Shown: positions 468-10,637, numbered from the stretch's first letter. The stretch is 10,637 nt of DNA from an uncultured archaeon (GCA_964493715.1 CAZBPC010000104.1:1-10637); one strand, 5' to 3'. The notes: generated by a model not told the origin, from the letters alone. Numbers and translations are program-made.

Positions 468-1406
468 TTATTTTTTAGATCTGGCATATATTTCTTGTGA
501 GAGATACAATAATATTTCTGGAATAGTACAATCGTTATTTTTAGAGATGTCAAATCGCTTCGCTCCCATTTCTTCAACAATGGAACTTATATCTTCATTT
601 GGAATAACTTCTGAATCTCCAATCACCATAAGAGCTACAGGCAATTTAATAAACTTGTTTTCACGTTTTCTTGTATTGAATACCAAATTTGTTTTTTCTC
701 TTATCTCCGTGATATAAGTTTTAATTTTTTCAAAAGAATTCCGATTTTCTTTATTTAAAACTAAGATTATTCCAGCAGATCCTAGAAAATATTGATTTCT
801 AATAGATTCAAATCTTTTATTATCGGATACTCTCCAAATTTGGAGTAATACAGAAGATTTATCAAATATTTCAAGTACATGCGTATAAAAATCAACGCCA
901 ATGATCTCAATGGAAGATTCACTTGTTTTAGTTAATAAAGAGAGCATTTTGTCAGAATATTCTTCGTCTAGTCCTAGCAAGATGATTTTAAATCGTTGAT
1001 CGTAATCCTTTCCCCATTTTCCAAAACTATCTAGAAACCGTTCATATCTTTGCACTTTCTTACGCAATTCATGCAATTGACTACGTTCTGTGCTCGTCAG
1101 TGTAATGCCTAATTCGCGTTTTATAATTGCTTGAACTTGCCCTTGACTTATCGTTTTTTCAAATTGCTGGAAAATGTGAGAAGAAAGATATGAGATGATC
1201 CAATTGATATCATACTGTTGACTGATTTGAAAAACAATTTCTTCCAATGATAATAGGGATTTTTGATATTGTTCTTTCTCAGGAAAGACATCTAATGTAG
1301 ATTCTAGCAAATCATCCACTAAATTAACTTTAGAGTATTTAATTTGTTTTAGAAATTTTAAAAGCTTATCACATTGTACATCTGTGAGCAAATTTTTTTC
1401 TAACAT
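468..1406 (-). CDS. Fusion of an N-terminal helical/winged-HTH-like region with a C-terminal degenerate Rab-like small GTPase domain (pseudo-GTPase)
   Basis: Residues ~135-312 carry FKIILLG, IGVDF, LLQIW, RFESIR, YFLGS, IILV and SFEKI in Rab order, but GxxxxGK[ST], DxxG and NKxD are absent. Residues 69-101 (WIISYLSSHIFQQFEKTISQGQVQAIIKRELGI) resemble a winged HTH. An SD-like GAGGT lies at 1419-1415. Confidence 0.8.
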   Translation of the reverse strand: MLEKNLLTDVQCDKLLKFLKQIKYSKVNLVDDLLESTLDVFPEKEQYQKSLLSLEEIVFQISQQYDINWIISYLSSHIFQQFEKTISQGQVQAIIKRELGITLTSTERSQLHELRKKVQRYERFLDSFGKWGKDYDQRFKIILLGLDEEYSDKMLSLLTKTSESSIEIIGVDFYTHVLEIFDKSSVLLQIWRVSDNKRFESIRNQYFLGSAGIILVLNKENRNSFEKIKTYITEIREKTNLVFNTRKRENKFIKLPVALMVIGDSEVIPNEDISSIVEEMGAKRFDISKNNDCTIPEILLYLSQEIYARSKK

Positions 1407-1430
1407 TTTTTAATACCTCTTCATATTTTG

Positions 1431-2337: not shown

Positions 2338-2934
2338 ATGAAAAAACTGGGGCAACTAAATTTAAAGTCAATAACATTGATTCAGATCATTGTTGCAGTG
2401 ATAATTTCGTTAATATTCCAATTCATCATTCCCCTTGCTTGGCAGCCACTTGATGCATTTGAAGCGGGAAAGTTGATCCATCATGGTGATGAGGGAACAA
2501 ATATCATAATTTTTACTGTAAGTCAATGGTATTTCTCTTTTTCCGTATCTTGGCATCTTAAGCGTGATAATAAATACATAAATAATTTTTTAATATATTC
2601 AATTCCGGGATTAACTTCTATAGTTTTCATAGAATTCTTCATTTATGGATTGTATTACGATTACATTCACCTACTAACTTTGGTAACAGCAATATATATT
2701 ATCATAAAGAAAAAGTACACTCTAATTCCCATACAAGCAATACCAAATTTTATACTTATAACTTTCTGGTTATTTTCTGTATATTTCTTAAGATTAGCTT
2801 ATTTTAATACTCCATTTACTGATTACTTTCTCAGATTTGTGGTTACTTCAATTGCTAATTTTGGAATATGGTGTTATATTATAATCATACATAGAAAGAG
2901 AAAAGAAACGGATGGAATTTCAAGTAAGTTTTGA
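2338..2934 (+). CDS. Integral membrane protein (about 6 TM), function unknown
   Basis: 198 aa with multiple hydrophobic stretches and several His residues near the TM segments (IHHGDEG, WHL, YDYIHL). Confidence 0.85.
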   Translation: MKKLGQLNLKSITLIQIIVAVIISLIFQFIIPLAWQPLDAFEAGKLIHHGDEGTNIIIFTVSQWYFSFSVSWHLKRDNKYINNFLIYSIPGLTSIVFIEFFIYGLYYDYIHLLTLVTAIYIIIKKKYTLIPIQAIPNFILITFWLFSVYFLRLAYFNTPFTDYFLRFVVTSIANFGIWCYIIIIHRKRKETDGISSKF

Positions 2935-3432
2935 ACCACAAAATTCACAAAATCGCAAATTTTCTGTATTTTTTAGATTTGAACCGCATGTAGGACAGAA
3001 ATTGGCTTTTCCAGGAAGGGGTGCTCCCTCTTGAATAACAATGTAATCTTGTGTATCCTTTTCTCTTGGTGGTGCAGTAAGAGGAGTTCTACAATTCTTG
3101 CAAGCAAAGTTTTCAGTTCGTTGTAGTTTATCACAGTTTGGACACCGAATTAATAGATCCAAACCACAATTCTTACAATATTCAGCATAATCACTAACGG
3201 GGTAATTACAACGCTGACATCTTTTCTGTGAAGGTCCTGAAATTCGGTTTATAATTAGCCAAAGTAAGGGTAAAATTATTAGAAATATGAAGATACCAAT
3301 CAAGATGTTAAACATCAAATCGGAACTAACATAATCCAGCAAGAATAGCAACACGAGAATAAATATTACGAAGATTGCACTCGCAAATATGATTATTATT
3401 CCAGTTCGGTTGCGATGGTTTCTAATACTCAT
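2920..3432 (-). CDS. Membrane-anchored (2 TM) double zinc ribbon plus C-terminal zinc ribbon protein
   Basis: Two N-terminal hydrophobic helices, then six CxxC pairs: CQRC, CKNC, CPNC, CKNC, CPTC, CEFC. Confidence 0.9.
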   Translation of the reverse strand: MSIRNHRNRTGIIIIFASAIFVIFILVLLFLLDYVSSDLMFNILIGIFIFLIILPLLWLIINRISGPSQKRCQRCNYPVSDYAEYCKNCGLDLLIRCPNCDKLQRTENFACKNCRTPLTAPPREKDTQDYIVIQEGAPLPGKANFCPTCGSNLKNTENLRFCEFCGSKLT

Positions 3433-3503
3433 TATTATAATGATAGTGTTTGGTTATTTTTATTGCTTCATATCTTTATAATTATCTTTTAAAATTATAG
3501 AGA

Positions 3504-3656
3504 TTAATCTAGTTCTACATGACAATAGGGACAGATTAAGGTACCGGGATCAATTTTTTCGCCGCACGCAAAACAAACTACTTTATCTTTACCAAAATGT
3601 ATTTTTCCGTTTTTTACAACTTCTGGTTTCTCATCAGCATTCTCATTTTCTGACAT
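3504..3656 (-). CDS. Small zinc-ribbon protein, 50 aa (not in the ORF track)
   Basis: Hand translation gives MSENENADEKPEVVKNGKIHFGKDKVVCFACGEKIDPGTLICPYCHVELD*, with a CxxC-x10-CxxC ribbon. It is co-oriented with, and 71 nt upstream of, 2920..3432. Confidence 0.85.
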   Translation of the reverse strand: MSENENADEKPEVVKNGKIHFGKDKVVCFACGEKIDPGTLICPYCHVELD

Positions 3657-3831
3657 GATTCCAACTCATTATATTTTATCATATTACTTATCTAGGTAAA
3701 ATAGGATTATGACTTTAAAAGAAACGGAGACCGATTTTTGATTTAAAATAAGTAAAATTTAAGTTATTAGAATGATTTTTACTATATAATCAACTGAAAT
3801 ATATAAGAGTTATCAATAATTGTGAATAAAA

Positions 3832-4035
3832 ATGCCAGGAAGTCATGGTAGCTTAACTAAAGCTGGAAAAGTAAGGCAACAAACTCCCAGAATAGATAGA
3901 TCTGGAGTAAATTCTGTTAAGAAAAAACCTCCAAGAATGCGCTATAGAAAACTCTATGAAAAGCGAGTGGGAAAAGGGAAATACTCTGGTCAAACTGATA
4001 GTATTGGAGCCAAGAGAGCCTCGTTCTCTCGTTGA
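3832..4035 (+). CDS. rps30e: 30S ribosomal protein S30e (eS30)
   Basis: Signature [16 protein letters not shown], then the basic [16 protein letters not shown]. Stand-alone archaeal form with no ubiquitin-like fusion. Confidence 0.96.
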
Positions 4036-4045
4036 TACTCAAATC

Positions 4046-4098
4046 ATTCTTTTTTTAATTCATTGTACAAATGGTTTTTCTTCTTTCATGTAAAAAAA
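4046..4098. terminator. T-rich tracts between convergent rps30e and 4099..4665
   Basis: A T-run at 4050-4057 and TTTTTCTTCTTT at 4075-4086 on +; an A-run at 4092-4098 reads as T on -. Confidence 0.4.
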
Positions 4099-4665
4099 TT
4101 AACTTATTTTATTTACTGATTTAATTTGGCTTAGTTTTGATTCAAACTTCGGGAGCATCTTACGGATATTTTTTTCCACTTTTTCTTCTTTCCCAAACCA
4201 AGGCATATTTTCTAGGTCCTTTTTATTGTAGAAGTCTAAGTCTTCTTTGTGAGCTTCTATATATCTCAGATGTTCCTTCTGACTCTCAATAATGTATGGA
4301 AGTATTTTCTTCTGGAATTCCAACCAACGCTCCTTAAACTCACTCTTGCTCTCACCGGATTTATCATTATATTGAGGCCGAAAATCCAAATACGAGATAT
4401 AGACGTGCTTATAGTTATTAAAAACATGAGTTTTATAGAGGGGTATTTTAAAAAATCCCTCCATTTTATTTTGATGATGTATTTGAAAGAAAACAACGTG
4501 CTTATTAGTGAAAATAAATGGGGTCTTCCATCTATAAACAATTTTTCCAACCATATGTGCGATTAGACCATAAGTAGCATAAACTACATCCTCATCAGAA
4601 GGAATAAACTTTTTAAAAATATCCAAATCGTTACTTGTAATATATATATCTGACATTTTGACCAA
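4099..4665 (-). CDS. Hypothetical protein with a probable PH-like (bPH/GRAM-type) N-terminal domain
   Basis: The pattern IPSDEDVVY...WKTPFIFTNKHVVF...IPL followed by a C-terminal helix resembles PH-like folds. The track start is TTG; the ATG at 4656 is a plausible alternative. Confidence 0.7.
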   Translation of the reverse strand: MVKMSDIYITSNDLDIFKKFIPSDEDVVYATYGLIAHMVGKIVYRWKTPFIFTNKHVVFFQIHHQNKMEGFFKIPLYKTHVFNNYKHVYISYLDFRPQYNDKSGESKSEFKERWLEFQKKILPYIIESQKEHLRYIEAHKEDLDFYNKKDLENMPWFGKEEKVEKNIRKMLPKFESKLSQIKSVNKIS

Positions 4666-4753
4666 TTTGAATTTTTTTTTGATATTTTTTTAAAATTGCA
4701 GTTTAAATTTTTCTTAATTAAACTTTACCTTTCTTGTATTTAATGCTAGCGTT

Positions 4754-6643
4754 TTAATTCATTGCTCCAATCTTCTTGAATTGGTTAATTAAAATTTGTC
4801 CTTGTTTGTAGTAATAACCAGCATTTTTGCTGTCTTTAACAAGAATATCGAAAAAATCACTCATTAAAAGATTCCATCGAATTGCTCTTTTAATTCCTGA
4901 AATTTCTTTCATATTTAGAGGGATACGATTTTCAAGGCTTTTTAATAAGAATAATGCTTTCCTTGAGTCGATTCTTTGATGGATATAAAATTCTGCTAAT
5001 TCTAATACTAAATCAAAAAAGATTAATTGATTTTTCTGATCATCAAAATCTATTCCTACTGCATCAATTCCAGCTTTAAGGAGTTTTTGAGAATGGGAAA
5101 GATTACCTTTATCTTTAAACTGCTTCGCTCGTAAAAGAAAATAAGTTAATTTAACTTTTATCGATGAATTCGCTAGCTGAAAAGCTTTCTTATATTCACT
5201 TTTAGCAAGTGCCAGTTGACTCTGCTCATCATGAATTAATCCCATATATAAAGTTGCCAATCCTATGTATTCTTCTTTATTAATTGAATGTTCCTCTTTT
5301 TCAAGGAAATTTACGATTACATTGAAATGGTTGAGAGCTTGAGGCATATTTTTTCTTTTAAAAAAATATTTTCCTAATTTATATTGTATTTTTAATATAT
5401 AATCAACTGGAACTTCTCCTGATTTTGCAATACCAAGAGCAGTTTGTAAGTAATTAAGTGCAATTTCATCCTGATTTAAAAGAGAGGCAATGTGATATAG
5501 CTTTAAAAGAATCGATACTACGATTTTCTTCTGACGATTTTTGTTAAATACTTTCAGGGATTGATTTAAGAGTTCGGTAGCGTCATCGAAACGATAATTT
5601 TTAATAAATTCCTCAGCTTCAGTATATAAATTTATTGTTTCCAGAACTTCGAAGTTCATTGGAGGTGAATTGAATAGATCATTATGAATTTGAAAAAGTT
5701 CTCCTTTCTTTATTAGACTCTCATAATGAAGTGCTGAAAACGCAAAATTATTGACATTTCCCTCAAATTCATTATTCTGTAATTCCCTTTCTACATTAAA
5801 TTGTATGAGATCGTGTTGATTAATTTCTGCTAAATCAATAATTTCTATCATTGAATTCAACATCATTCTAGCAAATTTAATCCAATTATCAACTAGAAGC
5901 TCCAAATTAACGCTCGTAGAGTTTAACAACCGATAAATAACATAAGGGGTGTAAGTATCAAATCCAGAACGAATATAAAATTTTTTGTAATCTAAATCTT
6001 TAAAATACGTGAAAAACCCCTTCTCAATAATAAAAAATTCATCAATTGGTTCATCATTCGAGAAAAATAATGTTTCTGATGCTCTAATTTTTGGCACTCC
6101 ACTTTTTAATTCCCAGGGTAACTTAAATGTTGGAAATAACCCGGATTTATTTACAGCAGGCAATAATTGATTAACAATAGATTGTTCTTCTTTTTGGAAC
6201 TCATCCCGTTTGGACATGAGAGAGATCCTAATTTTATTTTTCCACGAATTTTCATTTTCGCCTTTGATATATTCTGGGATTATCATATTAAGTAGATTTA
6301 CTATCTCAATTTCTCTTCCCTCTACAGGAAACGAATGTTCAATGGAGATTTGGATGGCTAAATCTCTCAACATCTTTAAAAGATAAAGTATTAATTTGTT
6401 TGTCGTTTGATTTAAATCCCAGATTTTAAAGACCAAAGATAATCTAAAATTAACAATTTCTAATGGAACATTAATCCTTAAAGGAAAGGCAACTGGAAAT
6501 TTTATATTGAATATGATAACTTTATTCTTATTTAGACTATACCTGAAATTGTTCTCTAATGACGCATTTCTTTGCCATCCATTCTTTTCAATAACCGTTT
6601 GTAGATTTTCTATTTCATTTTCAGAAAAAGGTCTTAGTGACAT
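4754..6643 (-). CDS. Large protein with C-terminal tetratricopeptide-like repeats and an unrecognised N-terminal alpha/beta region
   Basis: From about residue 335 there are TPR-like units: FDDATELLNQSLKVF, DEIALNYLQTALGIA, YKLGKYFFKRKNMPQALNHF, LYMGLIHDEQSQLALAKSEYKKAFQL. Confidence 0.85.
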   Translation of the reverse strand: MSLRPFSENEIENLQTVIEKNGWQRNASLENNFRYSLNKNKVIIFNIKFPVAFPLRINVPLEIVNFRLSLVFKIWDLNQTTNKLILYLLKMLRDLAIQISIEHSFPVEGREIEIVNLLNMIIPEYIKGENENSWKNKIRISLMSKRDEFQKEEQSIVNQLLPAVNKSGLFPTFKLPWELKSGVPKIRASETLFFSNDEPIDEFFIIEKGFFTYFKDLDYKKFYIRSGFDTYTPYVIYRLLNSTSVNLELLVDNWIKFARMMLNSMIEIIDLAEINQHDLIQFNVERELQNNEFEGNVNNFAFSALHYESLIKKGELFQIHNDLFNSPPMNFEVLETINLYTEAEEFIKNYRFDDATELLNQSLKVFNKNRQKKIVVSILLKLYHIASLLNQDEIALNYLQTALGIAKSGEVPVDYILKIQYKLGKYFFKRKNMPQALNHFNVIVNFLEKEEHSINKEEYIGLATLYMGLIHDEQSQLALAKSEYKKAFQLANSSIKVKLTYFLLRAKQFKDKGNLSHSQKLLKAGIDAVGIDFDDQKNQLIFFDLVLELAEFYIHQRIDSRKALFLLKSLENRIPLNMKEISGIKRAIRWNLLMSDFFDILVKDSKNAGYYYKQGQILINQFKKIGAMN

Positions 6644-7458: not shown

Positions 7459-8142
7459 TTAAAAATTATAGAATTTATTTGCGTCTTCAAGGTAAAAAAC
7501 TCCAAACCGTTCTTTCCTCCTTCTCTTTAGTGTTTCACGCCCCATACTTGAATCTTTCAGGCATAATTGCGTTTTATATAACCCCATTATGTCATATAAT
7601 CTATCACGATATCTTGCCATTTCTATTTTTATTTGTTTATCCATTGAGACTTTTAGGACATTATAAATAGCATAAACATAGAACTCAACTTGTTCTAATC
7701 CTAAAAGAATAGCAGCATTTTTTGCTATAATATGAGTTGCTTGATGATCGACATGGTTGTTATTATTACTTGGTAAAACAATCCGATTAGCATCCTTAAT
7801 AATATTAACTGCCAATTTAACACCATCGTCAATTCGGTTTGAAGCTCCTTGATCATAAAATTTAAACAGATGAGTATTTTCTTTTTTGAATCCAAATGAT
7901 TTCGCAACTTCCTCGGCTTCTTTAAGACCTATTTCAGCAATTTCATCTTCATTTAAATTAGAATATGGTTTTGCCATCTCCTCGATCAATTGATCATGAG
8001 CTCGGCCCCAAGAAATCAACACGCGATTATCAGTAACATATATTATATGGACCTCATGACCTTCATCCATCCATTTTAAAATACTTCCCCCACATCCATA
8101 AATTTCATCATCTGGATGTGGAGCAAAAATGATAATTTTCAT
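7459..8142 (-). CDS. PIG-L/LmbE family N-acetylhexosamine deacetylase
   Basis: Zinc-binding motifs FAPHPDDE(x)YGCGG and HVDH (HxDH), with a beta-strand HIIYVTD between them. Confidence 0.93.
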   Translation of the reverse strand: MKIIIFAPHPDDEIYGCGGSILKWMDEGHEVHIIYVTDNRVLISWGRAHDQLIEEMAKPYSNLNEDEIAEIGLKEAEEVAKSFGFKKENTHLFKFYDQGASNRIDDGVKLAVNIIKDANRIVLPSNNNNHVDHQATHIIAKNAAILLGLEQVEFYVYAIYNVLKVSMDKQIKIEMARYRDRLYDIMGLYKTQLCLKDSSMGRETLKRRRKERFGVFYLEDANKFYNF

Positions 8143-9131: not shown

Positions 9132-10637
9132 ATGTCGAGAAGGGGTACAATCACTCTGGTTTGTCTTTTAGCAATTGGATCAGGAGTAATACCAGCTGGA
9201 TTGCTTATCAACAATACTATTTTAAATGAAGTTGCAAATTCGATTGATGAAGGTCTTTTAGGAATTCAAGAAGAAGCTCTCCCAATGATTGAATCAATGA
9301 TCGCGGAATCGGGAATACCCAGAGCACTAAGAGATATTAAAATGATAGGATTGAGCGAAACTGAAGCTATTGTAAATGCTACCTTTTTCATGTTTGTTTT
9401 AAACATGACACTAAATGAACCTGCTGTTCTTGGAGTAGTCCCTATTAATTTATTTTTTGATCGCTGGATTCAGTGGATCCTAATCATACCAGTGACTTTC
9501 AGTTCAGCGATGCAAAATATGGGATATCCTCCTATAAAAGGGATTTCAGAATATTTCCAACAAGATTTATGGTATGGAAATGCGAAATATATTTTGATGG
9601 AGGGAACAAATACTCTTCCTGGACTGATAGGAAATACTACTTTAGGAACAGGTGTATTAAATTTCCTTAATTTATATGATCGTGCTATTGGTAATATAAC
9701 CCTTGAACAAGCATTATCAATTGGATACAATACTACTTGGAATAAATTGACAAAATTGACTGAATATTATCGGAACTATTTTGTACCAATAGCAATTCCA
9801 ATGATTGTAGCACAATTAGATATTTTAATGCCAGAATATTCTGGAATGGACACAAAATCTATAGCTGAAATGTATTACTTTGCTCAATGGGCAAATTGTT
9901 CGATGTTTGAAGATGGAATTAATTTAGGTGATATGGTAGATGATCTGAATGAGCCAGTTTATGGATTCGAACTCGATAGATCCATTCCTTCAAATATTAC
10001 CAAATTATCATGTGAATTATTATGGGAGGATAATCATCCTTATTCACTTACAAATGATACAGGAATTAATGAATGGATAAAAGCAAGAGATAATAAGACT
10101 AAATTAGAAGAATTAAGAACAGAATTCTTTCTGGAATATTATCAAGTTAAAATGATCGATCAATGGTTATGGAATGCATCATTTAAATGGGATATCATGC
10201 CTATCCTCATCACACTTCCACCTCCTTTAGGAGAGGGAATGAAGCTTGAAGATTTTGCATTAGTTATTTTTTTAGAAGTATGGACAAATGGTACTGCAGA
10301 TGGTAGAAAGTTATTTCCTTACGGATTTCCTCTTGAAATGCAAGCAACAACAGCTTATGGGTTTGAAATCGGATATCAGAGTCAAACAAAACCAGTAATT
10401 TCAACAAATATCTCACTTTCTTCAGCAAGATCTTTATGGAACACCTCAAGTCCATTTTCACTTATCACAAAAAATGGTGTAAAAGAATGGTTTAAAGCTG
10501 TTGATGATCCCAATTCGGCAACTGCTTATGGATTAAAAATAGCAAATGGCTTGGAGGATGAACAATTGCTAATGGTTTTATCTTGGTTACCTCGATTTAA
10601 AAATAATGTCATGCCATTTTTAGCTCAAGAGGAAATG
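9132..10637 (+). CDS. Large exported or membrane-anchored repeat glycoprotein, 3'-truncated (at least 502 aa; not in the ORF track)
   Basis: Hand translation is open from ATG 9132 to the window end. MSRRGTITLVCLLAIGSGVIPAGLLI is a signal/anchor segment. Internal ~130-aa repeats are present and 14 N-x-S/T sequons were counted. Confidence 0.9.
   Translation, partial: MSRRGTITLVCLLAIGSGVIPAGLLINNTILNEVANSIDEGLLGIQEEALPMIESMIAESGIPRALRDIKMIGLSETEAIVNATFFMFVLNMTLNEPAVLGVVPINLFFDRWIQWILIIPVTFSSAMQNMGYPPIKGISEYFQQDLWYGNAKYILMEGTNTLPGLIGNTTLGTGVLNFLNLYDRAIGNITLEQALSIGYNTTWNKLTKLTEYYRNYFVPIAIPMIVAQLDILMPEYSGMDTKSIAEMYYFAQWANCSMFEDGINLGDMVDDLNEPVYGFELDRSIPSNITKLSCELLWEDNHPYSLTNDTGINEWIKARDNKTKLEELRTEFFLEYYQVKMIDQWLWNASFKWDIMPILITLPPPLGEGMKLEDFALVIFLEVWTNGTADGRKLFPYGFPLEMQATTAYGFEIGYQSQTKPVISTNISLSSARSLWNTSSPFSLITKNGVKEWFKAVDDPNSATAYGLKIANGLEDEQLLMVLSWLPRFKNNVMPFLAQEEM

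What the first reader, a model, noticed from the sequence alone, without database searches (positions are those of the whole stretch)
468..1004. Rab-like pseudo-GTPase: Rab family motifs kept, all nucleotide-binding motifs lost
Seen: RabF1 IGVDF is exact, and RabF2-4-like LLQIW, RFESIR and YFLGS are correctly spaced. In contrast G1 reads GLDEEYSDKM, the G2 Thr is replaced by Ile, G3 reads WRVSDNK, G4 reads VIGDSE and G5 reads DISKN. Established: RabF motifs cluster around the switch regions that bind effectors and regulators, and G1-G5 are needed for GTP binding. Inference: the intact ORF encodes a nucleotide-free Rab mimic acting as a decoy, scaffold or sensor for partners of true Rab-like GTPases.
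Basis: partly seen in the sequence, partly recalled or inferred. Interest (0 to 1): 0.78.

Follow-up and report, generated by a model that had tools for sequence, protein, structure and literature searches.

The report
Conserved Asgard Rab-like pseudoGTPase family
This archaeal gene encodes a Rab-like protein that has kept the Rab partner-binding surface but lost the parts needed to hold GTP. It belongs to a conserved family that in some relatives is fused to a working GTPase, so it is probably a fixed, non-switching partner of such a GTPase.

Summary
ORF 468-1406 (-), 312 aa, passes Pfam Ras (E 3.6e-12) and folds as a Rab-type G domain. It lacks the P-loop Lys-Ser/Thr, DxxGQ, NKxD and SAK, while IGVDF, LLQIW and RFESIR remain. 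This is not local decay. In 104 of 104 retrieved relatives the G-like domain behind the N-terminal module has no GxxxxGK[ST], and dN/dS against an orthologue is 0.22. The RabF positions are the conserved ones and the former G loops the variable ones.

First, residues 1-135 form a separate all-helical module with no Pfam family, and it is the most conserved part (Q90, R108 and K117 in 58 of 58). Second, 36 of the 104 relatives carry the same module plus dead G domain fused to a further G-like domain, P-loop-bearing in nearly all. In the search that reported Pfam domains, 22 of 61 also had a CDC48 N-domain in front. Sources name them as Loki-, Thor-, Hermod-, Hod-, Heimdall- and Odinarchaeota.

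Best reading: a nucleotide-free subunit or regulator of a canonical small GTPase. The decoy idea is untested. I found no paper describing it. It is a new variant of the pseudoGTPase kind.

The parts
468..1406 (-). Whole gene, 312 aa plus stop codon: N-terminal helical module followed by a Rab-like pseudoGTPase domain
   Evidence: ORF list. 40 full-length family members at 40-85% identity. dN/dS 0.22 against the L001 orthologue.
1002..1406 (-). N-terminal module, aa 1-135: seven helices, the last (aa 105-133) a long connector running into beta-1 of the G-like domain. No Pfam family.
1044..1157 (-). Most conserved block of the protein, aa 84-121 (KTISQGQ...LTSTERSQLHELRKK...Y), with invariant Q90, R108 and K117
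   Evidence: Mean column entropy 0.76 bits, against 1.91 for the G-like domain. Q90, R108 and K117 in 58 of 58 rows. This block is what the 31 distant hits share.
471..1001 (-). Rab-like pseudoGTPase (G-like) domain, aa 136-312
   Evidence: Pfam Ras and Roc above cut-off. PDB Rab1A E 7.4e-13. Foldseek Rab hits with TMt 0.7-0.8. dN/dS 0.37.
945..974 (-). G1 (P-loop) equivalent GLDEEYSDKM: first Gly kept, acidic loop, Lys-Ser/Thr missing
   Evidence: Alignment to Rab1A. G145 in 58 of 58 rows, but the second Gly position is never G. No GxxxxGK[ST] in 0 of 104 relatives.
888..905 (-). Switch-I equivalent: Ile168 at the G2 Thr position, then RabF1 IGVDF (contains triad Phe173)
   Evidence: F173 in 55 of 58 rows. 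Position 168 is I in 27 and T in 22 of 58.
816..848 (-). RabF2-like LLQIW (triad Trp191) running into the G3 equivalent WRVSDNK (Asp, Gly and Gln all replaced here)
   Evidence: W191 in 57 of 58 rows. The Gln position is Q in 1 of 58.
777..815 (-). RabF3-like RFESIR and RabF4-like YFLGS (triad Tyr206)
   Evidence: Y206 in 54 of 58 rows. Family majority is RFESIR / YYRGA.
609..626 (-). G4 (NKxD) equivalent VIGDSE: guanine-specificity motif lost
   Evidence: The Asn position is G in 44 of 58 rows and N in 3 of 58. The Lys position is K in 5 of 58.
537..551 (-). G5 (SAK) equivalent DISKN
   Evidence: The region is among the most variable, at 2.41 bits.
1415..1419 (-). Shine-Dalgarno-like GAGGT, 8 nt upstream of the ATG
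   Evidence: Read directly from the sequence. Not tested.

Best explanation
What it is. The gene encodes a two-domain protein of Asgard archaea. Residues 1-135 are a highly conserved, uncharacterised all-helical module. Residues 136-312 are a Rab-like G domain that can no longer bind guanine nucleotide. It has no P-loop Lys-Ser/Thr, an acidic loop in its place, no NKxD and no SAK. That makes it a pseudoGTPase of the nucleotide-binding-deficient kind.

What is kept. The domain retains, under purifying selection, the Rab switch/interswitch surface: RabF1-4 and the Phe-Trp-Tyr triad. So it presents a fixed, nucleotide-independent Rab-type interaction face.

How it most likely works (inferred). 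Many relatives carry exactly this module plus dead G domain covalently followed by one or two canonical Ras/Rab-like G domains, and often preceded by a Cdc48-type N domain. The stand-alone protein here therefore most likely works as a non-switching subunit or regulator of a separately encoded canonical small GTPase. Candidates are the six own-genome paralogues that are about 50% identical to the fused G domain. The N-terminal module would provide the second, family-specific binding or regulatory activity.

Shown: fold, motif loss, family-wide conservation, and the existence of the fusions. Inferred: absence of nucleotide binding, and partnership with a GTPase.
For: Fold and family:
- Pfam Ras E 3.6e-12, with only profile positions 25-160 matched.
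- PDB Rab1A E 7.4e-13, with the P-loop Lys at a gap.
- AF2 pLDDT 79.
- Foldseek top hits are all Rabs, TMt 0.7-0.8.

The loss is family-wide:
- 40 orthologues at 40-85% identity.
- Among 127 proteins gathered by three searches, 122 carry the module and 104 have a G-like domain directly behind it. 0 of those 104 have GxxxxGK[ST] there.

Selection and conservation:
- dN/dS against L001 is 0.22 overall, 0.08 for the module and 0.37 for the dead G domain.
- RabF1, F2 and F4 columns have 0.69, 1.10 and 1.35 bits of entropy. The G1, G3, G4 and G5 equivalents have 2.14, 2.13, 1.89 and 2.41 bits.
- Triad residues: F173 in 55 of 58 rows, W191 in 57 of 58, Y206 in 54 of 58.

Fusions:
- 36 of the 104 have a further G-like domain. 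30 of these have both P-loop and NKxD.
- Examples: P0047 is CDC48_N + CDC48_2 + module + dead G + G. P0053 is module + dead G + G. P0054 is module + dead G + G + G.
- 22 of the 61 hits carry PF02359.
- Sources name Prometh-, Thor-, Hermod-, Hod-, Heimdall- and Odinarchaeota.
- In the genomes sampled there is mostly one module gene per genome, either about 285-335 aa or about 670-684 aa.

Own genome:
- The module is single copy.
- Six canonical paralogues are 46-54% identical to the fused G domains.
- Nearly all of about 99 Ras-like ORFs keep a P-loop, so this gene is an exception in its genome.
Against: - No biochemical test exists. Some proteins with aberrant G motifs still bind nucleotide, and the G3 Asp (26 of 58 rows) and Gly (14 of 58) survive in part of the family.
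- No GTPase gene is a conserved neighbour. Synteny is with eS30, zinc-ribbon, membrane and TPR genes, only in L001, L002, L006 and L007 and not in L003-L005.
- The six candidate partners are equally similar to the fused G domain, so none is singled out.
- The own genome has no stand-alone CDC48_N protein. All 4 matches lie in 753-785 aa frames.
- The family is patchy: the module was found in 28 of 299 sampled genomes of the phylum, 13 of 90 high-quality ones.
- 18 of the 122 module proteins have no G-like domain at all, so the module can work without a GTPase-like part.
Confidence: 0.6

Rival explanations
1. Decoy or competitive mimic. The nucleotide-free Rab look-alike titrates effectors, GEFs or GAPs away from true Rab-like GTPases.
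For: The switch/interswitch RabF surface and the Phe-Trp-Tyr triad are conserved while the nucleotide loops drift. The genome holds about 99 Ras-like ORFs whose partners could be competed for.
Against: Nothing here shows competition. The covalent fusion of the same unit to a live GTPase in 36 of 104 relatives fits cooperation better than competition. The very conserved N-terminal module is unexplained by a pure decoy.
Confidence: 0.12
2. The N-terminal module is the working part, for example an assembly or adaptor domain of death-fold-like shape, or a nucleic-acid- or phosphate-binding helical domain. The dead G domain is then only a structural scaffold, and the function has nothing to do with GTPase signalling.
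Confidence: 0.15
3. A non-canonical but still functional nucleotide-binding protein. It would bind ATP, GTP or another ligand through residues outside the classical G1-G5 positions, possibly contributed by the N-terminal module's invariant Ser, Thr, Arg and Lys residues.
For: The first P-loop Gly is invariant in 58 of 58 rows, and 13 of 58 rows have Lys one position after the gap. The module holds an invariant S/T-rich turn followed by Arg and Lys.
Against: No GxxxxGK[ST] in 0 of 104. The loop is acidic. NKxD and SAK equivalents are among the most variable columns.
Confidence: 0.1
4. A recently decayed paralogue or pseudogene with no function.
For: Loss of catalytic motifs alone would fit this.
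Against: The frame is intact. There are 40 full-length orthologues down to 40% identity. The same losses occur in all relatives. dN/dS is 0.22.
Confidence: 0.01

Closest known systems
Eukaryotic Rab GTPases (Rab1, Rab8, Rab11/Ypt32, Rab35) and the Asgard 'Thor-Rab' of PMC10933270
   Same: Best sequence and fold matches. RabF1 is exact, and the family majority is KLQIW and YYRGA. Like Thor-Rab, it has no C-terminal prenylation extension (passages of PMC10933270; protein end).
   Different: Those proteins bind GDP/GTP through an intact P-loop; Thor-Rab was crystallised with GDP. Here G1, G4 and G5 are gone, and a 135-aa module precedes the domain.
CENP-M and the pG1/pG2 domains of p190RhoGAP (nucleotide-binding-deficient pseudoGTPases of eukaryotes)
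   Same: A G-domain fold with lost nucleotide-binding motifs, used as a scaffold or interaction domain. Passages of PMC10211241 say that CENP-M supports kinetochore assembly and that two p190RhoGAP pseudoGTPase domains do not bind nucleotide.
   Different: No detectable specific sequence relationship was seen; the nearest PDB hits are true Rabs. The domain context differs, the lineage is archaeal, and the Rab family motifs are retained.
Rnd1/Rnd3-type pseudoGTPases
   Same: Members of the Ras superfamily that act without cycling and regulate another GTPase's regulator (passage of PMC10211241).
   Different: As I recall, Rnd proteins still bind GTP. This protein lacks the binding motifs altogether.
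Fused Asgard relatives: CDC48_N + CDC48_2 + module + dead G + live G (e.g. P0047, P0080, P0082) and module + dead G + G(+G) (P0053, P0054, P0108, P0109)
   Same: Same module and same dead G domain. The module is 38-60% identical, and the dead G domains of the fused forms score 96-146 bits against the pseudoG HMM built from this family.
   Different: The window's protein lacks the Cdc48-type N domain and the C-terminal canonical G domain. Sources annotate the fused forms only as 'GTP-binding protein'.
TBC-domain RabGAPs (dual Arg/Gln finger) - functional analogy only, recalled
   Same: A regulator that could supply Arg and Gln in trans. The module has invariant Q90 and R108, and 22 of 27 fused live G domains lack their own catalytic Gln.
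   Different: No sequence or fold similarity to TBC domains was found or tested. This is pure analogy.

Membership tests
Ras superfamily small G domain (Pfam PF00071) | Sequence match above the curated cut-off | tested here: met
   46.6 bits against a cut-off of 21.6, E 3.6e-12, with only profile positions 25-160 of 162 matched.
Ras superfamily small G domain (Pfam PF00071) | Alpha/beta G-domain fold | tested here: met
   AF2 model has pLDDT 79 with alternating strands and helices. Foldseek against PDB gives Rab chains at E ~1e-10 and TMt 0.7-0.8.
Rab family | RabF1-RabF5 family motifs (consensus recalled: IGVDF, KLQIW, RFrsiT, YYRGA, LVYDIT) | tested here: inconclusive
   This protein has IGVDF 5 of 5, LLQIW 4 of 5, RFESIR 4 of 6, YFLGS 2 of 5, and ILVLNK weakly matched. 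The family majority is IGVDF, KLQIW, RFESIR, YYRGA.
Rab family | Intact G1-G5 guanine-nucleotide-binding motifs | tested here: not met
   P-loop Lys-Ser/Thr absent. 0 of 104 relatives have GxxxxGK[ST] in this domain. NKxD and SAK equivalents lost.
Rab family | C-terminal Cys prenylation motif | tested here: not met
   The protein ends ...EIYARSKK without Cys. Canonical Asgard Rabs also lack the extension (PMC10933270 passages).
PseudoGTPase, nucleotide-binding-deficient class | G-domain fold with loss of the residues needed to bind nucleotide, conserved in orthologues | tested here: met
PseudoGTPase, nucleotide-binding-deficient class | No measurable nucleotide binding by the purified protein | not testable with these tools
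   Needs mant-nucleotide, ITC, DSF or native mass spectrometry.
Death-fold superfamily (PYD/CARD/DD/DED), for the N-terminal module | Six-helix bundle superposable on solved death-fold domains, well above background | tested here: inconclusive
Known anti-phage defence proteins (PADLOC-DB) | Match to a defence-system model | tested here: not met
   0 families for the full protein. There is one weak hit (E 2.6e-4) for the module alone that the full-length protein does not reproduce.

The most novel reading that the evidence does not exclude
The module plus dead Rab-like domain is a built-in regulator (GAP-like or lock-like) of a partner GTPase. The dead G domain would dock on the live G domain as a pseudo-dimer. 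The N-terminal module would then insert its invariant Gln90 and Arg108 (58 of 58 rows) as trans-acting catalytic fingers. This would explain why the covalently attached live G domain keeps its P-loop (27 of 27) but has lost its own catalytic Gln in 22 of 27 fused relatives. It would be a previously unknown type of GTPase regulator, built from a pseudoGTPase, in the archaeal lineage from which eukaryotes arose.
Probability: 0.15. Interest if true: 0.85.

Novelty: new variant of a known kind. Interest (0 to 1): 0.62.

Why it matters
Asgard archaea hold the largest prokaryotic sets of Ras/Rab-like GTPases, about 84-99 in this genome. Their regulators are almost unknown. As far as my searches reach, pseudoGTPases have been described only in eukaryotes: 0 papers with 'Asgard' and 'pseudoGTPase', and 2 with 'pseudoGTPase' and 'archaea', neither about an archaeal one.

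A conserved archaeal Rab-like pseudoGTPase would show that 'dead' GTPase subunits and multi-GTPase modules existed before eukaryotes. This one has an intact Rab interaction face and a new companion domain, and in relatives it is fused to live GTPases and to a Cdc48-type substrate-binding domain. It also gives a concrete handle, a partner hunt, on what Asgard Rab-like proteins do.

Tried and rejected
Searches and predictions that gave nothing usable:
- Complex prediction of the whole protein (alignment A4) with the best candidate partner GTPase, C100:3923-4477 (alignment A3): no verdict, score 0.00 in two runs, controls not run. This is not evidence either way.
- The search for homologous proteins with lengths 'longer': none among 2798 candidates. 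This was a false blank, because fused forms appeared.
- ESM Atlas on aa 1-135: no usable hit.
- Foldseek PDB on the module: 0 matches at E <= 0.001.
- NCBIfam: only a far-below-cut-off hit.
- PADLOC: nothing consistent.
- The look-up of sequencing runs: 24 DNA holders (salt-marsh and sediment metagenomes), no RNA holder listed.

Tests of specific ideas:
- Conserved gene neighbourhood: no GTPase or other functionally telling gene is kept next to the orthologues in L001-L007.
- Stand-alone CDC48_N protein in the own genome: none. All 4 matches are in 753-785 aa Cdc48-like frames.
- Weak Pfam hits of single module proteins (IQUB, Rpb1_7, RNase H2 wHTH, DUF1002) differ from protein to protein and were dismissed.

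Calls that did not run:
- The search of earlier findings was not open.

Limit of the literature check: supplements of the Asgard GTPase papers were not read. A listing of this family there cannot be excluded.

Full report
1. What is in the sequence.

The window is AT-rich, with GC 0.22-0.36 per 500 bases. It is contig C104 of a 3.68-Mb, 160-contig genome. The finding lies inside an intact minus-strand ORF, 468..1406, of 312 aa. A GAGGT sits 8 nt upstream of its ATG (read).

A script placed every quoted motif:
- G1-equivalent GLDEEYSDKM: aa 145-154
- IGVDF: aa 169-173
- LLQIW: aa 187-191
- WRVSDNK: aa 191-197
- RFESIR: aa 198-203
- YFLGS: aa 206-210
- VIGDSE: aa 261-266
- DISKN: aa 286-290

2. 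Is it a small GTPase fold, and of the Rab kind?

- Pfam Ras matches at E 3.6e-12 (46.6 bits, cut-off 21.6) and Roc at 2.4e-7. The Ras match begins only at profile position 25, behind the P-loop.
- phmmer against PDB sequences finds 207 distinct chains at E <= 0.01. The best are all Rabs (Rab1A 7.4e-13, Ypt32, Rab35, Rab8, Rab11).
- The printed alignments put G145 on the first P-loop glycine, D-E-E-Y where Rab1 has S-G-V-G, a gap at the P-loop lysine, and Ile168 on the switch-I threonine.
- An AlphaFold2 model on 30 family sequences has mean pLDDT 79.1 and pTM 0.54, with the expected strand and helix order from residue 137.
- Foldseek against the PDB returns at least 500 matches at E <= 0.001, headed by Rab1, Rab11, Rab8 and Ypt32 (E ~1e-10, target-normalised TM 0.7-0.8).

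3. Is the motif loss a local accident?

No.
- A word-indexed search found 40 full-length relatives at 40-85% identity. Two are named by their sources as Promethearchaeota and Thorarchaeota. In the 30-sequence alignment A1 none has GxxxxGK[ST] or NKxD.
- After two more searches I had 127 proteins. Of these, 122 carry the N-terminal module, and 104 have a G-like domain directly behind it. In 0 of those 104 does that domain contain GxxxxGK[ST]. Seven of them contain an [NT]KxD string somewhere, which I did not place.
- These 127 were gathered with this protein and one relative as queries and include fragments. They are a family census, not an unbiased sample.
- Against the L001 orthologue (68% identical), Nei-Gojobori dN/dS is 0.22 overall, 0.08 for aa 1-135 and 0.37 for aa 136-312. 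With L002, dS is saturated.

Within the dead G domain the conservation pattern is telling. The RabF positions are the conserved ones:
- Mean column entropy over 58 rows is 0.69 bits for RabF1, 1.10 for RabF2 and 1.35 for RabF4.
- It is 2.14, 2.13, 1.89 and 2.41 bits for the G1, G3, G4 and G5 equivalents.
- The family majority at the RabF positions reads IGVDF, KLQIW, RFESIR and YYRGA.
- The three aromatic residues that I recall as the Rab 'hydrophobic triad' are nearly invariant: F173 in 55 of 58 rows, W191 in 57 of 58 and Y206 in 54 of 58.

Against a clean story, the G2 position is Thr in 22 of 58 rows, the G3 Asp position is D in 26 and the G3 Gly position is G in 14. Only G1, G4 and G5 are lost family-wide.

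4. How unusual is this in its own genome?

Pfam Ras rings 84 times in the genome. A profile built from 24 canonical own-genome paralogues finds 101 domains in 99 ORFs. By strict regular expressions 38 have canonical G1, G3 and G4, and nearly all the rest still have a P-loop.

The full-length ORFs failing all three are this gene, C118:3480-4538 (352 aa) and, partly, C28:27975-28553 (sequences). The gene is thus a rare exception among many live paralogues.

Residues 1-135 have no Pfam or NCBIfam family, yet hold the most conserved block of the protein. Residues 84-121 have 0.76 bits mean entropy, and Q90, R108 and K117 are invariant in 58 of 58 rows.

Modelled alone on 50 sequences, the module is confidently all-helical: pLDDT 86.8, pTM 0.80, seven helices, the last spanning aa 105-133 and running into beta-1.

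- Foldseek finds nothing in the PDB (0 matches at E <= 0.001).

6. Relatives with other architectures.

phmmer with aa 1-135 against 1.84 billion representatives gave 31 hits at E <= 0.001. Pfam scans and motif checks of these, and of the 61 hits of a search with P0053 residues 1-343, show three recurrent architectures:
- module + dead G, as here;
- module + dead G + one or two further G-like domains: 36 of 104, of which 30 have both P-loop and NKxD, 5 only NKxD by my regex, and 1 is a partial. 22 of the 61 proteins also carry a CDC48_N (and mostly CDC48_2) domain in front;
- module without any G-like domain: 18 of 122, several ending in CxxC...HC strings, and one (P0063) again behind CDC48_N.

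Sources name the fused forms only as 'GTP-binding protein', 'small GTP-binding protein' or 'ADP-ribosylation factor-like'. They place them in Prometh-, Thor-, Hermod-, Hod-, Heimdall- and (stand-alone) Odinarchaeota.

In a sample of 299 genomes of the phylum, a six-sequence profile of the module found it in 28 genomes. That is 13 of 90 high-quality genomes, 16 of 26 in the own genus and 20 of 66 in the own family. Most have one gene per genome, in frames of either about 285-335 aa or, in two genomes of a sister genus, 670-684 aa (the single-sequence query gave 26 of 299). The family is broad but patchy. Only 17 candidates per genome were scored, so some may be missed.

7. From anatomy to mechanism.

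The domain fusion is the strongest functional clue. The same module + dead G unit is repeatedly found covalently upstream of a live Ras/Rab-like domain, with a linker of only about 6-9 residues (coordinates). That argues the unit works together with such a GTPase.

The own genome has the module only once and no fused form. The live G domains of the fused relatives are 46-54% identical to six own-genome stand-alone GTPases, none of which stands out.

In the fused relatives the live domain keeps its P-loop in 27 of 27. At the position of the catalytic Gln, however, it has Q in only 5 of 27 (S in 11, G in 9, R in 2), while 5 of 5 own-genome stand-alone paralogues have Q.

My best reading (confidence 0.6) is that the protein is a nucleotide-free, constitutively 'shaped' Rab-like subunit. 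Through its conserved switch/interswitch face and its N-terminal module, it partners with or regulates a canonical small GTPase.

The boldest reading the data allow (probability 0.15) is that the module's invariant Gln and Arg act in trans on the partner's active site, by analogy with dual-finger RabGAPs (recalled). The Cdc48-type N domain in the longest forms suggests a link to protein-substrate or adaptor binding. The own genome has that domain only in four 753-785 aa Cdc48-like frames.

8. What does not fit or was not obtained.

- No GTPase is a conserved neighbour. The synteny that exists (TPR protein, eS30, zinc-ribbon and membrane proteins) holds in L001, L002, L006 and L007 but not in L003-L005.
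- The one complex prediction gave no verdict (see Tried and rejected).
- No RNA run holds the stretch (see Tried and rejected).
- Nucleotide binding, partner binding and the orientation of the two domains (whole-model pTM is only 0.54) remain untested.

9. Literature.

- Full-text searches gave 0 papers with 'Asgard' and 'pseudoGTPase'.
- They gave 2 papers with 'pseudoGTPase' and 'archaea'. In the one I opened (PMC10211241, passages) the pseudoGTPases discussed are eukaryotic (Rnd1/3, CENP-M, p190RhoGAP). The other I saw only in the listing.
- I read passages only, by term search, of three papers and found no mention of motif-dead or tandem forms: PMC10933270 (Asgard Rab, roadblock and TRAPPC3 structures), PMC4915359 ('Are there Rab GTPases in Archaea?') and bioRxiv 10.1101/2024.02.28.582541 (Asgard Arf family).
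- PMC11188069 (ESCRT systems, passages) mentions Cdc48 N-domains only in Vps4-like ATPases.
- Two further searches listed nothing relevant.
- Supplements were not read. The family may be listed there without comment.

10. Verdict.

The 'decoy' mechanism is untested and less likely than a partner or regulator role.

The thing is a conserved, apparently undescribed Asgard family: a new helical module plus a Rab-like nucleotide-dead G domain, in relatives fused to live GTPases and Cdc48-type N domains. It is a new variant of a known kind (pseudoGTPases). Interest is 0.62.

Noticed in passing
own genome G000, C118:3480-4538 (-), held as L031: A second candidate pseudoGTPase of different architecture, 352 aa. 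The Rab-like domain is at the N-terminus, the G1, G3 and G4 regexes all fail (SISIKF, WNLSVD, CPKVA at the motif columns), and a long low-complexity C-terminal tail follows.
   Followed up: partly
own genome C28:27975-28553 (-); L002:7510-8028 (-): A 192-aa Ras-like ORF with a degenerate P-loop and GNNID in place of NKxD. A similar 172-aa ORF, also with a degenerate P-loop, lies about 570 bp downstream of the pseudoGTPase orthologue in L002, convergent.
   Followed up: partly
own genome, about 17 Ras-like ORFs (e.g. C8:68850-69365, C27:23959-24525, C28:24869-25399): A large paralogue group has G[SGAC]KxD instead of NKxD, together with SSK instead of SAK, while P-loop and DxxG are intact. The replaced Asn might change base specificity.
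   Followed up: no
proteins P0053, P0072-P0106 (fused relatives), alignment A3: The live G domain of the fused forms keeps its P-loop in 27 of 27. At the catalytic-Gln position it has S, G or R in 22 of 27, whereas 5 of 5 stand-alone own-genome paralogues have Q.
   Followed up: partly
window 2338-6643 and 3832-4035: The gene order is TPR-like 629-aa protein (4754-6643 -), ribosomal protein eS30 (3832-4035 +), 50-aa zinc-ribbon ORF (3504-3656 -), 170-aa membrane protein with double zinc ribbon (2920-3432 -) and 198-aa membrane protein (2338-2934 +). This order is kept next to the orthologue in L001, L002 and L007, and partly in L006.
   Followed up: partly
window 9132-10637 (+), runs off the window end: An open frame of at least 502 aa with an N-terminal hydrophobic stretch, many N-x-S/T sites and no Pfam match. 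Possibly a secreted or surface protein.
   Followed up: no
window 7459-8142 (-): A PIG-L family de-N-acetylase, 227 aa (Pfam E 3.1e-21). It is conserved at 70% identity in L006.
   Followed up: no
proteins P0059, P0061, P0063, P0065: Module-bearing proteins without a G-like domain end in CxxC...(P)xHC strings that look like a zinc ribbon. P0063 also has CDC48_N + CDC48_2 in front.
   Followed up: partly
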